Source of the DNA: Candidatus Harrisonbacteria bacterium
GTDB taxonomy: Bacteria; Patescibacteriota; Minisyncoccia; UBA6257; 1-14-0-10-40-38
DNA length: 64,000 nt
Direction: 5' to 3'
Assembly: GCA_023245035.1 (NCBI GenBank)
Contig: JAHFLD010000002.1
Coordinates: forward strand, 67,297 to 131,296
Shown here: one piece after another, positions 8,998 to 11,317 of the stretch
Layout of the letters: each line of letters begins with the position of its first letter
Numbering within the stretch: position 1 is the stretch's first letter
Notes under the pieces: model-generated
The model's input: the letters and a program-made list of their open reading frames with translations, nothing else
Database searches by the model: none
Told to the model about the DNA's origin: nothing
Position numbers and translations under genes: made by a program

Positions 8998-9012
8998 CGG
9001 ATCTTTTACGAA

Positions 9013-9060
9013 CCCGCCTCCGCTCGACCTGCCTTCCGGCAGGCAGGGCTACTGACGGGC
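9013..9060. repeat. dispersed repeat family C copy (CGCCTCCGCTCGACCTGCCTTCCGGCAGGCAGGGCTAC)
   Basis: Near-identical copies at 27140-27190 and 40810-40858; contains a CCTGCC-TTCC-GGCAGG hairpin. Confidence 0.7.
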
Positions 9061-9097
9061 AAGTGTACGAATAAAAGAGCGGACAAGACAAAGCGGG

Positions 9098-9811
9098 TTT
9101 GACAAATAATGGCTTTATTTGCTATGTTTGGTTGGCTCGGAGATGGGGAGACTTTGGGAGATCTGTTGGAAAACTATGATTTCGATGTTTTCTCGTTTCC
9201 GGGCGTACTTTGAAAACCAAATTAGGGCGGGATAGAACTTAGATTAGCTTGTTTTTTAAAGACTAATATGCAGGTGTTCCTTCTCGCTCTTCCCGAGGCG
9301 GTACTTTCGCCAAATTGTTTCTTCGGAGACTAGTGTCAGAATGTGCCGTCTTGGGATTCTTACTTGTGGAGCGCACTACGATCGATTTGTTTTTCCTCCT
9401 AGGAGGAGAGACTTAGCGTGTGATGTGCGCTCCGCTTATTCCGCACTGCGGTGCTGTGGCTGGTATTAGAGGTGGTGGAGACTTGGGTGAGAGTGTTTTT
9501 TTCTAGAACTATCGTTCCGCTGTTTTCACCACCTCTTCAAATTCCTGGAGTGCCGGAAGACTTGGAATCGGTTGTTTTCAAGAGAAACTTCTCTGGTGCT
9601 GTTTTTCGGCATTCCAGCTTCTTACTCTGAACGTCGGGAGACGATTTTGCGAGTGTTCTTTTGGGACTAAATTTGAAGTGTTTTCCGACGTTCAGCTTCT
9701 TACCTTGGGCGCGGGGAGACTTCTATAAGGTTGTCCTTGTAGGACTATCACGAACGTGTTTTCCCGCGCTCGATCTTAAATGTTCCTTCGGGAACGAAAG
9801 CGAGGTTTGCG
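9098..9811 (+). ncRNA. candidate structured non-coding region: tandem array of ~7-8 imperfect ~80-nt hairpin units upstream of the IS110-like recombinase gene
   Basis: GGAGAC(T)T motif recurs at 9147, 9325, 9408 (GAGAGAC), 9477, 9556 (GGAAGAC), 9637 and 9715, a period of ~78-83 nt. Each unit has a different but self-complementary flanking stem and conserved GTGTTTT(C) and CTTCTTAC blocks. A possible -35/-10 lies at 9098-9126. Confidence 0.35.
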
Positions 9812-11041
9812 ATGCGTTTGATTGGCGTGCGACATCGAGTCAAGCAGACTGCCAAGGGCGAGGCGCGGCCGACGATGGTGGCCATCAAGGATGGCGACCA
9901 CTTGGTTACGCATGAGCTTGCCGACGATCAGGCGGAGTTGGACTTTTTGCTCCACCTCTTTCCGATCGCCTGGCGACCGGCTGAGGAGGGCGATAATCCC
10001 TCTTCTTACCAAGCGCGACACTGCAAGTGGACGAAGGACGAGGTGAGTGGGGCGCAGGTTCTGGCAAAGGTTCCGGTTGAGTTTGAAGGGTTGCACCGCG
10101 ATGATGTTGTGCTGATGTCGCTTGGCGGATCCGGCGACCGTTTTGCCGCCGCTCTTTCTCGCAGAGGCGAGGAGGTTGGGGCCAAGGTTTGTCGCGTTCC
10201 GTCGTTTCATCTGAAGGATTTGCGAGGTGAGGCCGTCAAGGAAGATGATCACCTGAATCTGATTCGAATCTTTGAGGCAAGTGCCGATGTTTTCCGCGAG
10301 ATGACGCCACGCGATCGGGCGCTCATCCGAGTGCGCGAGGCTTATTTTGCCAGACAAGAGGCTCAACGAGCGCGAATCGGGTGCGAGCAGAGATTGCGTC
10401 AGCAGTTCATTGGCAAGATCTTTCTTTCGGAAGAAGGTCGCTATCCCGAAGGTGAAGTTGAGGCGCTCTTTGACGAAGCCAAGGCAAACGACAAGGTTTT
10501 TCAGGGTCTGCTTACGGAAGAGAGGCAACGCGATCGCGATCTGAAGAAGGTTGTGCACGCGCTTCCGGTTTGGAAGATTTTTGAAGATATCGAAGGCGCC
10601 GGAGAAACCATCGCCGCTGGTATCGTGTCGGTGATTGGGGATATTCGCCGTTTTGCTAATAAGAAGAAGCTCAAGGCTTTCTGCGGGGCGCATGTGATGT
10701 CTGACGGAAGGATGCCCCGCCGTCGAGCCGGTCAAGTTGCCAACTGGGTTCCGAATGCGCGACAGGCGCTTCACTTGCTGACCGATCAGTTCAATCGGCG
10801 CCCCGATAGCGTGTGGGGTCAGAAGTTGCGCGAATACAAGGTGAAGCTTCGCGAGAGGCATCCGGAGCCGATTCTGGTTCCCTCCGATCCGACTGATCCG
10901 AAGTCCAAAATGGTGAAGCGTTACACCAATGGCCATATCCACAAGATGGCGTTACGGCGTACCGCGACCAAGTTTGTGGAGTGGCTCTACCGCGAGTGGA
11001 CGAAGCTCGAGACCGAGGTGCCCGCGCCGGTTCTGAATTAG
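9812..11041 (+). CDS. IS110-family-like recombinase/transposase (DEDD RuvC-like N-terminal domain plus transposase_20 C-terminal domain), atypical
   Basis: C-terminal IEGAGETIAAGIVSVIGDIRRFANKKKLKAFCGAHV...RRRAGQ...ARQALHLL matches the IS110 transposase_20 signature (IPGIG..TAA.L.AEIGDI.RF...K.LAAYAGL.P...SG...LR.ALY). VCRVPSFHLKDLRGEAVKEDDHLNLIRIFEAS matches the DEDD domain KTD..DA region. 409 aa with an inserted ~45-aa segment. Confidence 0.6.
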   Translation: MRLIGVRHRVKQTAKGEARPTMVAIKDGDHLVTHELADDQAELDFLLHLFPIAWRPAEEGDNPSSYQARHCKWTKDEVSGAQVLAKVPVEFEGLHRDDVVLMSLGGSGDRFAAALSRRGEEVGAKVCRVPSFHLKDLRGEAVKEDDHLNLIRIFEASADVFREMTPRDRALIRVREAYFARQEAQRARIGCEQRLRQQFIGKIFLSEEGRYPEGEVEALFDEAKANDKVFQGLLTEERQRDRDLKKVVHALPVWKIFEDIEGAGETIAAGIVSVIGDIRRFANKKKLKAFCGAHVMSDGRMPRRRAGQVANWVPNARQALHLLTDQFNRRPDSVWGQKLREYKVKLRERHPEPILVPSDPTDPKSKMVKRYTNGHIHKMALRRTATKFVEWLYREWTKLETEVPAPVLN

Positions 11042-11119
11042 CTCAAGTTTGAAGTGAAAGTTCTTGGCCTTGTATTACCTTCGGGTAGTGCGAGGCCATT
11101 TTTATAATCTAGAACCTCA

Positions 11120-11285
11120 AAATCTGACACATTTCTGCCTACGGCAGACAGGTCTTTGTTGCGGGCTGCGGTGCTCAACGCAGTACTTGTCTAAGTACAG
11201 CTTATTCCGCGCCTCGCTCGCGCCTCAAACTGCCTGCCCGAACGACTACGTTCAGTCGGGCGGGCGCTCAAATCCGTAGGTTTAA
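11120..11285. repeat. family A repeat copy A2, related to the MITE-like element at 6783-6950
   Basis: Shares CATTTCTnCC..hairpin..ACAGGTnTTTGTTGCGGGCTG..GTACTTGnnTAAGTACAGCT..GCCCGAACG..CGGGCGGGC with A1. Confidence 0.65.
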
Positions 11286-11317
11286 AATGGGATTAAGAAA
11301 CGCACGGGCAAAAAAAG

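What the first reader, a model, noticed from the sequence alone, without database searches (positions are those of the whole stretch)
8998..11290. IS110-family-like recombinase gene with an ~800 bp structured 5' non-coding region, bracketed by dispersed repeat copies
The 409-aa ORF 9812..11041 carries the two hallmark IS110 domains: DEDD/RuvC-like (…VCRVPSFHLKDLRGEAVKEDDHLNLIRIF…) and transposase_20 (…IEGAGETIAAGIVSVIGDIRRFANKKKLKAFCGAHV…RRRAGQ…ARQALHLL…). It is the only recombinase-like gene in the window. IS110-family elements have no terminal inverted repeats, carry a long non-coding end that encodes the bridge (guide) RNA specifying target and donor, and frequently insert into repetitive extragenic sequences. 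Here the gene is preceded by an unusually long, highly structured non-coding region (9098-9811). The locus sits between a family C repeat copy (9013-9060) and a family A repeat copy (11120-11285). That is what insertion into a repeat cluster would look like. The upstream region is 3-4 times longer than known bridge RNAs and is built from tandem units, so this may be a divergent or previously undescribed variant of an RNA-guided recombinase system.
Basis: partly seen in the sequence, partly recalled or inferred. Interest (0 to 1): 0.85.

Follow-up and report, generated by a model that had tools for sequence, protein, structure and literature searches.

The report
TIGR-Tas guide-RNA array with TasR
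This is not a jumping gene but a chromosomal TIGR-Tas system of a Patescibacteria (CPR) bacterium, a kind first described in 2025: eight tandem hairpin guide RNAs sit in front of the gene for an IS110-related protein that probably binds DNA under RNA guidance without cutting it.

Summary
The ORF (9812-11041, 409 aa) and the roughly 700-nt structured upstream region are real. The IS110 reading does not hold.

**Protein.** It passes NCBI's curated TIGR-Tas model (NF052498, 155.9 bits, cut-off 100). It fails the IS110 model (30.8 bits, cut-off 140). Its predicted fold matches TIGR-TasR (PDB 9mty) best.

**Upstream region.** It holds eight stem-loop tigRNA units. Each has a variable lower stem, box C (C+2 nt), a 9-nt spacer A, box D' (UG), a loop hairpin, box C', a 9-nt spacer B and box D (UG). 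The same unit recurs about 660 times, almost always on the gene's strand, beside 80 homologous genes in Patescibacteria. One of those loci is the contig that Faure et al. (Science 2025) name as their inactive-RuvC TasR example.

**Mobility.** The gene is syntenic in an 83%-identical ortholog that lacks the flanking dispersed repeats. It is therefore not an insertion into a repeat cluster.

**Likely function.** RNA-guided DNA binding and transcriptional repression. This is shown for relatives and inferred here.

**New side observations.**
- Orthologous units keep their stems but have completely different spacers.
- A two-unit orphan array lies 11 kb away.
- A lone loop hairpin sits just before the ribosome-binding site.

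No natural target was found.

The parts
9099..9128 (+). Promoter-like site (TTGACA, 18 nt, TATGTT, with TG before the -10) in front of the array
   Evidence: It is conserved in the L012 ortholog (alignment A3). Consensus match only; no transcript data.
9135..9204 (+). tigRNA unit H1. Lower stem 9135-9152 / 9187-9204; box C tail 9153-9154; spacer A 9155-9163 (TGGGAGATC); box D'-loop hairpin-box C' 9164-9176; spacer B 9177-9185 (TGATTTCGA); box D U 9186
   Evidence: Fold, coordinates, covariance model R1 18.1 bits, E 0.031. An orthologous unit in L012 has the same stem and different spacers.
9225..9289 (+). tigRNA unit H2. Spacer A 9241-9249 (AGATTAGCT); spacer B 9266-9274 (ATATGCAGG). The lower stem has a 2-nt internal mismatch
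   Evidence: Fold, coordinates. Model R1 misses it at E<=1. It is accepted on anatomy and on the orthologous unit in L012.
9291..9356 (+). tigRNA unit H3. Spacer A 9307-9315 (TCGCCAAAT); spacer B 9333-9341 (GTGTCAGAA)
   Evidence: R1 19.9 bits, E 0.011. Compensatory stem changes against L012.
9366..9435 (+). tigRNA unit H4. Spacer A 9379-9387 (CGATCGATT); spacer B 9415-9423 (AGCGTGTGA); long 27-nt loop hairpin
   Evidence: R1 20.3 bits, E 0.0085.
9468..9536 (+). tigRNA unit H5. Spacer A 9485-9493 (GGGTGAGAG); spacer B 9512-9520 (TCGTTCCGC). Absent from the L012 ortholog
   Evidence: R1 18.3 bits, E 0.028; absence in L012 from alignment A3.
9545..9617 (+). tigRNA unit H6. Spacer A 9564-9572 (GGAATCGGT); spacer B 9591-9599 (CTCTGGTGC); followed by CUUCUUAC
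   Evidence: R1 16.9 bits, E 0.065.
9627..9695 (+). tigRNA unit H7. Spacer A 9645-9653 (TTTTGCGAG); spacer B 9670-9678 (AATTTGAAG); followed by CUUCUUAC. Absent from L012
   Evidence: R1 26.1 bits, E 0.00024.
9705..9773 (+). tigRNA unit H8. Spacer A 9723-9731 (CTATAAGGT); spacer B 9748-9756 (TCACGAACG)
   Evidence: R1 22.4 bits, E 0.0023.
9781..9797 (+). Solo 'loop hairpin' (UG-UUCC-UUCG-GGAA-CGA). It equals box D' + hairpin + box C' without spacers or a lower stem, and ends 4 nt before the Shine-Dalgarno GAGG (9802-9805)
   Evidence: Read from the sequence. Identical in L012. A similar element lies within 50 nt of the start codon in 32 of 74 loci, against about 13% background. A role as a TasR binding site is inference.
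9812..11041 (+). tasR gene, 409 aa. RuvC-like N-terminal domain (about residues 1-160, apparently inactive), coiled coil (about 166-249), Nop-type C-terminal RNA-binding domain (about 250-405)
   Evidence: NCBIfam NF052498 at 155.9 bits; PDB 9mty at E 4.8e-11 for the single sequence and 3.8e-21 for the profile; AF2 model with pLDDT 89; Foldseek top hit 9mty.
11065..11098 (+). Intrinsic-terminator-like hairpin followed by a T run, ending the array-tasR transcription unit
20703..20888 (-). Orphan two-unit tigRNA mini-array, 11 kb from tasR on the other strand. It has perfect TTGACA and TATAAT hexamers only 15 nt apart (20888->20862). Unit O1 is 20851->20787 (spacers CTCGTACTT / TTGTCTCTC). Unit O2 is 20781->20729 (spacers TTGATCCAG / GAAGAACGG; box D is CG). 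A terminator follows at 20724->20703
   Evidence: Finder; R1 15.9 bits, E 0.12 and 13.2 bits, E 0.6; fold z = -5.2; terminator; coordinates. The scores are weak. Membership rests on the exact 2+9 / 9+1 anatomy of two adjacent units.

Best explanation
The locus is a stem-loop-type TIGR-Tas system of the CPR/Patescibacteria TasR clade.

**Transcription unit.** One unit (promoter about 9099, terminator about 11098) carries eight tigRNA hairpins followed by tasR.

**Guide architecture.** Each hairpin presents two 9-nt spacers in an internal loop. The loop is framed by box C (C plus 2 nt) and box D (UG) motifs, at both the lower stem and the inner loop hairpin.

**Mechanism, by homology with solved and tested relatives.** A TasR dimer binds one processed tigRNA through its Nop domains. 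Spacer A pairs with one DNA strand and spacer B with the other strand of an adjacent 9 bp, giving an 18-bp target.

**Likely outcome.** The RuvC-like domain appears to have lost its acidic catalytic residues. The complex most likely binds DNA without cutting it and represses transcription at the target.

**Shown here:** the protein's family membership and fold; the array anatomy; its strand-specific association with the gene family; chromosomal synteny.

**Inferred:** expression and processing (probably at the CUU-containing linkers), DNA binding, lack of cleavage, repression, and what the targets are.
For: **Protein**
- NF052498 'TIGR-Tas system RNA-guided endonuclease': 155.9 bits, cut-off 100, E 1.4e-45.
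- PDB 9mty (TaTasR) is the best sequence match and the best fold match (E 4e-12 over 414 columns). The model has pLDDT 89 and pTM 0.81.
- Homolog locus L047 (44% identical) is the contig that Faure et al. name as their inactive-RuvC TasR example.

**RNA**
- Eight units have loop strands of exactly 11 and 10 nt.
- Across 82 homologous loci, 285 of 348 plus-strand units found by a pattern finder have exactly 11/10. Only 22 units are found on the minus strand.
- A covariance model built from other loci finds 7 of the 8 window units. It finds 660 matches (E<=0.1) in 80 loci, and 299 of the 300 best-scoring matches listed are on the gene's strand.
- Spacer positions show no base preference, while the C...UG frames are invariant.
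- The anatomy matches the published description of the CPR clade: a CUU/UG box pair, 9-nt pairing, a hairpin in the loop region, and CUU at the stem base.

**Inactive RuvC**
- The family consensus has IGIRHR where RuvC folds carry the first Asp. CsTasR has R8 at that position.
- K143 aligns with the first Asp of TaTasR's NDEND motif. Only D146 is kept.

**Not mobile**
- The same neighbours are present in the 83% ortholog.
- The gene occurs once in the window (tblastn of the loci and window). In the protein database most listed hits are clusters with a single member sequence.
Against: - No transcript or processing data exist for this organism.
- No target was found. The best matches in the 64-kb window are 13-15 of 18, the same as for shuffled spacers. 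Six scans of viral contigs gave 0, 1, 0, 0, 0 and 1 independent exact hits, which I judge chance-like, though no chance expectation was computed.
- RuvC inactivity is read from alignments and from relatives, not from a residue-level structural superposition. One acidic residue (D146) is invariant, and the NCBIfam name says 'endonuclease'.
- The repressor function has been demonstrated only for CsTasR and MbTasA in E. coli. PateTasR was shown there only to lack cleavage activity.
- Unit H2 is missed by the covariance model, and the window units score modestly (17-26 bits). The model was trained mostly on CGA-type box C units, whereas this lineage uses CUU/CUA.
Confidence: 0.85

Rival explanations
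1. It is an IS110/IS1111-family insertion sequence. The protein is an RNA-guided serine/DEDD recombinase, the upstream region is an unusually long bridge RNA, and the element has inserted into a cluster of dispersed repeats.
For: - Partial PF02371 (Transposase_20) match, 28 bits.
- Weak NF033542 match, 30.8 bits.
- IS621 and ISCro4 are the next-best fold matches after TasR.
- Dispersed-repeat copies lie on both sides.
Against: - NF033542 is far below its cut-off (30.8 against 140), and PF01548 gives no match.
- The column that aligns with the IS621 catalytic Ser region is not conserved: the family reads HV[LM]xDG with a variable x.
- The RNA consists of eight (elsewhere up to about 18) single-loop units rather than one target loop plus one donor loop.
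- The gene has the same neighbours in an 83% ortholog that lacks both repeats.
- The gene occurs once in the window.
- No spacer matches sequence flanking the locus.
Confidence: 0.02
2. It is a nuclease-active TIGR-TasR system that cuts invading DNA, as an RNA-guided defence like TaTasR.
For: - Same family and fold as TaTasR.
- The spacers are hypervariable between close relatives, as expected in an arms race.
- A 2026 preprint calls TIGR-Tas 'defense systems'.
Against: - Three of the four acidic RuvC positions appear to be replaced: R at the first position, Gly-rich LGGSGD at the strand that carries the second, and K143 at the third.
- The two CPR/Patescibacteria TasR proteins tested showed no cleavage.
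- No viral protospacers were found.
- PADLOC has no match. Its 2023 library predates TIGR-Tas, so this is weak evidence.
Confidence: 0.07
3. It is a box C/D-snoRNP-like machine. The hairpins guide the Nop-domain protein to RNA (rRNA or tRNA) for modification or processing, not to DNA.
For: - The Nop domain and the C/D-like dual-guide architecture are shared.
- Faure et al. speculate that the CPR dead-RuvC clade could be an intermediate toward snoRNPs.
Against: - Spacers are completely different between orthologous units of close relatives (25% identity). None is shared between species. Conserved rRNA or tRNA targets would predict conserved guides.
- The window, including its two tRNA genes, contains no match.
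- TaTasR is inactive on RNA substrates.
- CsTasR was solved bound to dsDNA.
- No K-turn consensus (RUGAUGA/CUGA) is present.
Confidence: 0.04

Closest known systems
Stem-loop TIGR-Tas systems of the CPR TasR clade (Faure et al., Science 2025, PMC12045711; Xu et al., bioRxiv 2026, 10.64898/2026.09.09.750476; examples CsTasR, PateTasR and the Buchananbacteria scaffold_15087 locus)
   Same: - TasR with a RuvC-like N-terminal domain that lacks catalytic residues, a coiled coil and a Nop C-terminal domain.
- Tandem hairpin units with variable palindromic stems.
- Two 9-nt spacers framed by C(UU)/UG boxes, and a hairpin in the loop region.
- CUU at the stem base or in the linkers.
- The array is on the same strand as tas, upstream and elsewhere also downstream of it.
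   Different: Nothing essential differs.
- At 409 aa the protein lies between PateTasR (329 aa) and CsTasR (547 aa).
- The two nucleotides after box C are UU/UA here, against GA in most relatives.
- Not mentioned in those papers: the two-unit orphan array 11 kb away, the solo loop hairpin at the ribosome-binding site, and the spacer turnover between orthologous units.
Dual-repeat TIGR-TasR/TasH (TaTasR, PDB 9mty; SpTasH, PDB 9w04)
   Same: - Nop-domain dimer scaffold.
- Dual-spacer guide, with each spacer pairing to a different DNA strand.
- Box C/D anchors.
   Different: - Those arrays have conserved edge and loop repeats and yield 36-nt tigRNAs. Here the stems are unit-specific and the units are 65-73 nt.
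- Those effectors have active nucleases. In TasH, a C-terminal Tyr/His loop processes the RNA.
IS110/IS1111 bridge-RNA (seekRNA) recombinases (IS621, PDB 8wt6-8wt9)
   Same: - Homologous RNA-binding (Nop/Transposase_20) domain and a RuvC-fold N-terminal domain.
- Guides lie in internal loops and read both DNA strands.
   Different: - No DEDD or Ser catalytic set.
- No donor-loop and target-loop pair.
- Not mobile.
- An array of many independent guides instead of one bispecific RNA.
Archaeal/eukaryotic box C/D sRNP (Nop5/Nop56/58 with C/D guide RNA)
   Same: - Nop-domain coiled-coil dimer with an inactive RuvC-like N-terminal domain.
- Guide RNA ordered C - guide - D' - C' - guide - D.
   Different: - No K-turn boxes.
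- No sign of fibrillarin or L7Ae partners (not tested).
- DNA rather than RNA targets in the tested relatives.
- The guides are not conserved.

Membership tests
TIGR-Tas (stem-loop type, CPR TasR clade) | Tas protein with a Nop-type C-terminal RNA-binding domain | tested here: met
   - NF052498: 155.9 bits against a cut-off of 100.
- 9mty: E 4.8e-11 for the single sequence and 3.8e-21 for the profile, over residues 222-352.
- The Foldseek top hit is 9mty.
TIGR-Tas (stem-loop type, CPR TasR clade) | [quoted passage not shown] | tested here: met
   - Eight units read C+2 nt, 9-nt spacer A, UG ... C+2 nt, 9-nt spacer B, UG.
- C, UG, C and UG are invariant in 66 aligned units from other loci. This is built in, because the finder that picked those units required these bases.
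- Spacer positions show no compositional preference.
TIGR-Tas (stem-loop type, CPR TasR clade) | Variable palindromic stems in place of edge repeats | tested here: met
   - Each unit has its own 9-18-bp lower stem.
- Stem changes between the window and L012 are compensatory.
- 99% of cells pair, with 225 double-sided changes. That alignment was selected for pairing, so this count is partly circular.
TIGR-Tas (stem-loop type, CPR TasR clade) | Array co-oriented with and adjacent to tas | tested here: met
   - 660 covariance-model matches in 80 loci, and 299 of the 300 best-scoring matches listed are on the tas strand.
- The pattern finder gives 348 plus-strand units against 22 minus-strand units.
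TIGR-Tas (stem-loop type, CPR TasR clade) | RuvC-like N-terminal domain that is catalytically inactive (clade feature) | tested here: inconclusive
   - A RuvC-like fold is predicted, and the full-length alignment to TasR holds.
- The consensus reads IGIRHR at strand 1, and K143 aligns with the first Asp of TaTasR's NDEND motif.
- CsTasR has R8 at the first catalytic position.
- No residue-level structural superposition was available.
TIGR-Tas (stem-loop type, CPR TasR clade) | Array transcribed and processed into unit tigRNAs that load onto Tas and direct DNA binding | not testable with these tools
   Only promoter-like and terminator-like sites and CUU-containing linkers are available. Experimental evidence exists for relatives only.
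IS110/IS1111 RNA-guided recombinase (insertion sequence) | DEDD RuvC-like catalytic domain (PF01548) and whole-protein family membership | tested here: not met
   - PF01548 gives no match.
- NF033542 scores 30.8 bits against a cut-off of 140, and NF051857 scores 15.1 against 180.
IS110/IS1111 RNA-guided recombinase (insertion sequence) | Conserved catalytic serine in the Tnp domain | tested here: not met
   The region that aligns with IS621 '...RRYESGSSVRG' reads HV[LM]xDGRFPRRR, with x variable (S, D, P, K, E ...) among 28 family members.
IS110/IS1111 RNA-guided recombinase (insertion sequence) | One bridge or seek RNA with a target-binding and a donor-binding loop that match the target site and the element ends | tested here: not met
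   - There are eight equivalent single-loop units.
- No spacer pair matches the sequence flanking the locus or anywhere in the window above the shuffled level.
- Rfam gives no match.
IS110/IS1111 RNA-guided recombinase (insertion sequence) | Mobility: several copies, variable location, empty sites in relatives | tested here: not met
   - The gene occurs once in the window (tblastn).
- The position is identical in the 83% ortholog.
- Another sample carries a 100%-identical locus.
- In more distant relatives the neighbourhood does differ.
Box C/D sRNP (Nop5-type) | K-turn-forming box C (RUGAUGA) and box D (CUGA), with L7Ae and fibrillarin partners | tested here: not met
   The boxes here are C+2 nt and UG only. 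The partner proteins were not searched for.

The most novel reading that the evidence does not exclude
In chromosomal CPR TIGR arrays the two 9-nt spacers are renewed in place, inside stem and linker scaffolds that are otherwise conserved. The renewal may extend to the two nucleotides after box C. It runs well above the synonymous substitution rate.

- Between this locus and its 83% ortholog the spacers are 25% identical (27 of 109), which is the random level.
- Stems are 88% identical, linkers 92%, and four-fold degenerate sites 57%.
- By my estimate, not a tool result, this corresponds to roughly 2.5 times the synonymous rate or more.

The pattern would point either to a dedicated, still unknown spacer-replacement mechanism or to intense diversifying selection by fast-changing targets. 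The orphan array and the solo hairpin at the ribosome-binding site would then be parts of a more distributed, self-regulating system than so far described.
Probability: 0.3. Interest if true: 0.65.

Novelty: already known. Interest (0 to 1): 0.3.

Why it matters
**As a classification, it matters little.** The system type, its CPR clade and its stem-loop arrays were published in 2025-2026, and NCBI already has a curated model that this protein passes. The practical value is a correction. The protein databases searched name homologs 'transposase' or 'IS116/IS110/IS902 family', and a sequence-only reader also took the gene for an insertion sequence. It is a stably inherited host gene with its own guide array.

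**As material for open questions, it has some value.** Both key papers state that spacer acquisition and natural targets of TIGR arrays are unknown. This locus has a syntenic ortholog, so individual units can be compared one to one. That comparison shows scaffold conservation with complete spacer replacement. The locus also shows that guide units can sit, apparently with their own promoter, 11 kb from tas. This bears on how widely array-finding tools should search.

Tried and rejected
- **Tandem Repeats Finder** on 8900-11400 found no array. The units share architecture, not sequence.
- **Rfam**, permissive scan of 8000-12500 and gathering-threshold scan of the whole window: only chance-level hits and two tRNAs.
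- **H/ACA-like pocket or bridge-RNA loop.** Before finding the literature I read the internal loops this way. I dropped it once the protein matched TasR and the C/UG frames matched published tigRNAs.
- **LGGSGD as the first catalytic Asp.** I first took LGGSGD (residues 104-109) for the strand carrying the first catalytic Asp of a truncated RuvC domain. The structure model and the CsTasR description show that the RuvC fold starts at residue 1. LGGSGD sits on the strand that would carry the second acidic residue.
- **Self-targets.** All eight spacer pairs were searched in both possible strand arrangements (A+rc(B) and rc(A)+B) with gaps of 0-2. The best scores were 13-15 of 18, and shuffled spacers gave 13.6-14.0 on average with maxima of 15-16. 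Single spacers with up to 1 mismatch gave only scattered hits.
- **Viral protospacers.** Six exact scans of IMG/VR (units H5, H8 and H6 in both arrangements) gave 0, 3 (one identical GC-rich sequence on three contigs), 0, 0, 0 and 1 hits. I judge these chance-like, though no chance expectation was computed.
- **Spacers shared between species.** The maximum was 14 of 18, and the distribution equals the shuffled null.
- **Strain-level spacer variation.** The only other retrievable contig with the identical protein (L083) is 100% identical over the array.
- **Flanking dispersed repeats as part of the system.** They are absent from the ortholog and from all other loci.
- **Synteny with groESL as a family feature.** It holds only in the closest lineage.
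- **PADLOC** gave no match.

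
Full report
**1. 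What is in the sequence**

ORF 9812-11041 (+) encodes 409 aa. A sigma-70-like promoter lies at 9099-9128, and an intrinsic-terminator-like hairpin follows the ORF at 11065-11098. The 687 nt between promoter and start codon fold as RNA with an MFE of -288 kcal/mol. The z-score is -9.8 against dinucleotide shuffles.

The fold resolves into eight consecutive hairpins, H1-H8, spanning 9135-9773 (coordinates). Tandem Repeats Finder reports nothing, because the units share architecture rather than sequence.

Each unit has these parts in order:
- a unit-specific lower stem of 9-18 bp, often ending GGAGAC/GUUUUC with G·U pairs;
- a 5' loop strand of exactly 11 nt;
- an inner hairpin that starts UGU and ends ACU(A/U);
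- a 3' loop strand of exactly 10 nt.

After H8 comes a lone copy of the inner hairpin (9781-9797). It ends four bases before the Shine-Dalgarno sequence.

**2. The protein**

Pfam gives only a partial Transposase_20 match (28 bits) and no DEDD_Tnp_IS110 match.

The protein belongs to a large family. More than 800 database proteins match it, and the top 120 all have E<1e-117 at about 50-57% identity. All named hits come from Patescibacteria, and most listed hits are clusters with a single member sequence.

NCBI's curated model NF052498 ('TIGR-Tas system RNA-guided endonuclease') scores 155.9 bits against a cut-off of 100. The IS110 model NF033542 scores 30.8 bits against a cut-off of 140.

Among solved structures the family profile matches TaTasR (PDB 9mty) at E 3.8e-21, and IS621 only at E 1.7e-4.

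An AlphaFold2 model (pLDDT 89, pTM 0.81) has an N-terminal alpha/beta domain, two long helices and a helical C-terminal domain. Its best PDB fold match is 9mty over the full length (E 4e-12). IS621 and TasH come next.

In a 28-member alignment the position corresponding to the IS110 catalytic serine is variable. The family consensus starts RIIGIRHR, where RuvC folds carry their first Asp. K143 aligns with the first Asp of TaTasR's NDEND motif, and only D146 is invariant. This agrees with the published CsTasR structure, in which R8 and V126 fill the first two catalytic positions. I did not obtain a residue-level superposition, so inactivity remains an inference.

**3. The RNA units across relatives**

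A scan of one genome per species found 97 relatives, all in Patescibacteria MAGs. Eighty loci were fetched.

A simple pattern finder gave these results on the loci held at that point (82: the 80 plus two):
- 348 units on the gene's strand, 285 of them with loop lengths of exactly 11 and 10 nt;
- 22 units on the opposite strand.

In 66 aligned units from other loci only six columns are invariant: C, U-G, C and U-G, which frame two 9-nt stretches. The finder that picked those units required these bases, so their invariance is built in. The 9-nt stretches show no positional base preference.

A covariance model built from those units recovered 7 of the 8 window units. It found 660 matches (E<=0.1) in the 80 loci, and 299 of the 300 best-scoring matches listed are on the plus strand. 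Stem pairing statistics are strong but partly circular, because the units were selected for pairing.

**4. Identification**

The literature search triggered by the 9mty match identified the system. It is TIGR-Tas (Faure et al., Science 2025, PMC12045711).

[quoted passage not shown] It also describes a CPR clade of TasR with an inactive RuvC domain. Its named example is Candidatus Buchananbacteria RIFCSPHIGHO2_02_FULL_56_16 scaffold_15087. That contig is my locus L047, 44% identical to the window protein. L047 carries at least 13 covariance-model matches among the 300 best listed.

A 2026 preprint (10.64898/2026.09.09.750476) adds the following:
- CPR-clade tigRNAs have a hairpin in the loop region.
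- The box pair of PateTasR is CUU/UG.
- Each spacer pairs with 9 nt, giving an 18-bp target.
- Processing maps to a CUU motif at the stem base.
- PateTasR and CsTasR do not cleave DNA.
- CsTasR and a TasA act as RNA-guided transcriptional repressors in E. coli.

The window units map onto this exactly: lower stem ...C|UU (box C), 9-nt spacer A, UG (box D'), loop hairpin, C|UA or C|UU (box C'), 9-nt spacer B, U|G (box D). CUU or CUUCUUAC follows directly after the stems of H6 and H7 and overlaps the last stem base in H4 and H8.

**5. Why it is not an insertion sequence**

- The curated-model scores rule it out.
- The 83%-identical ortholog (L012/L081) sits between the same 235-aa ORF and groES/groEL. 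Its promoter, its stems and its leader hairpin align with those of the window.
- The two dispersed repeats that bracket the window locus are absent from that ortholog and from every other locus. They are copies of lineage-specific intergenic repeats that also occur elsewhere in the window.
- At greater evolutionary distance the neighbourhood is not conserved. Long-term relocation is therefore not excluded.

**6. Mechanism**

*Shown here:* family membership, fold, array anatomy, the strand-specific association with the gene family, and a plausible single transcription unit.

*Inferred from relatives:*
- The transcript is cut in the linkers.
- A TasR dimer holds one tigRNA.
- Spacers A and B pair with opposite strands of adjacent 9-bp segments.
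- The complex binds without cutting and blocks transcription.

The targets are unknown:
- No site in the 64-kb window exceeds the shuffled-spacer level, in either strand arrangement.
- Six exact scans of viral contigs gave only chance-like results.
- No spacers are shared between species.

**7. Observations beyond the published description**

Neither key paper mentions orphan arrays, autoregulation, synteny or turnover.

(a) *Spacer turnover.* Six units are orthologous between the window and L012. Identity by segment class is:

| Segment class | Identity |
|---|---|
| Lower stems | 88% |
| Linkers | 92% |
| Loop hairpins | 71% |
| Two nucleotides after box C | 5 of 12 |
| Spacers | 25% (27 of 109) |
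| Four-fold degenerate sites of four flanking genes | 57% (302 of 532) |

The spacer-versus-four-fold difference gives Fisher p about 1e-9. Unit pairs matched by stem similarity across eight locus pairs (window/L012 included; some of these pairings may not be true orthologs) give 26% spacer identity (103 of 396). The spacers have therefore been fully randomised or replaced inside conserved scaffolds. I estimate this as roughly 2.5 times the synonymous rate or more; that figure is my calculation, not a tool result. The window also has two units (H5, H7) that L012 lacks. L012 has a second array of three units after the tasR terminator that the window lacks.

(b) *Orphan array.* A two-unit orphan array lies on the minus strand at 20851-20729. 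Upstream are perfect TTGACA and TATAAT hexamers, spaced only 15 nt apart. A terminator follows. The covariance-model scores are weak (E 0.12 and 0.6), but both adjacent units have the exact 2+9 / 9+1 anatomy.

(c) *Solo loop hairpin.* The lone hairpin next to the ribosome-binding site recurs in 32 of 74 loci, against about 13% expected. This suggests TasR binding to its own leader. That is pure inference.

**8. Verdict**

The system is an already described kind, the stem-loop TIGR-Tas of the CPR dead-RuvC TasR clade, and an existing curated model recognises it. Interest as a discovery is therefore low. The spacer-turnover pattern, the orphan array and the leader hairpin are modest new leads on questions the field calls open.

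Noticed in passing
window 20703-20888 (minus strand): A two-unit orphan tigRNA mini-array lies 11 kb from tasR on the opposite strand. It has perfect TTGACA and TATAAT hexamers only 15 nt apart, and its own terminator. Unit O2 has CG instead of UG as box D. The covariance-model scores are weak (E 0.12 and 0.6), but the anatomy is exact.
   Followed up: partly
window 9781-9797; also within 50 nt of the tas start in 32 of 74 homologous loci: A solo box D'-hairpin-box C' element, half a tigRNA without spacers, sits directly before the Shine-Dalgarno sequence. It is enriched over background (about 13% expected, P about 1e-10). It may be a TasR autoregulation site. Some of the 32 may be inner hairpins of complete units rather than solo elements.
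   Followed up: partly
window 9135-9773 versus L012 3380-3965: Orthologous units keep their stems (88% identical) and linkers (92%), but their spacers are at random identity (27 of 109). Four-fold degenerate sites of the neighbouring genes are 57% identical. The two nucleotides after box C also differ (5 of 12 identical).
   Followed up: yes
L012 5400-5720 versus window 11100-11300: The ortholog has a second array of three tigRNA units with its own terminator between tasR and groES. The window lacks it and has a dispersed-repeat copy there instead. Conversely, window units H5 and H7 are absent from L012. Arrays therefore gain and lose whole units.
   Followed up: partly
window 9008-9060, 27135-27186, 40805-40854; 11118-11290 and 6794-6929; also 1603-1880 and 13539-13636: Several families of short, hairpin-rich dispersed intergenic repeats occur in this genome. 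They are absent from the 83% ortholog locus and have no Rfam match. Their nature (REP- or MITE-like, or small RNAs) was not determined.
   Followed up: partly
L072 2034-2088 and 2306-2360: Two units in one array carry identical spacer pairs (AAATTGCAC / ACATGGATG). This is evidence that arrays grow by duplication of units.
   Followed up: no
L077 3434-3482 (minus strand): This is the only strong covariance-model match (33.6 bits) on the strand opposite to tas among the 300 best matches. It may be an inverted unit or a second, divergently oriented array.
   Followed up: no
588 units across 80 loci against the window units: The two nucleotides after box C are GA in most lineages (353 of 588). 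They are UU/UA in the window lineage, and mixed (UU, UG, GU, GC) in its closest relative. The motif is therefore less fixed than 'CUU' suggests.
   Followed up: partly
window 766-837 and 16456-16540: Two tRNA genes are the only Rfam matches at gathering threshold in the whole 64-kb window.
   Followed up: no
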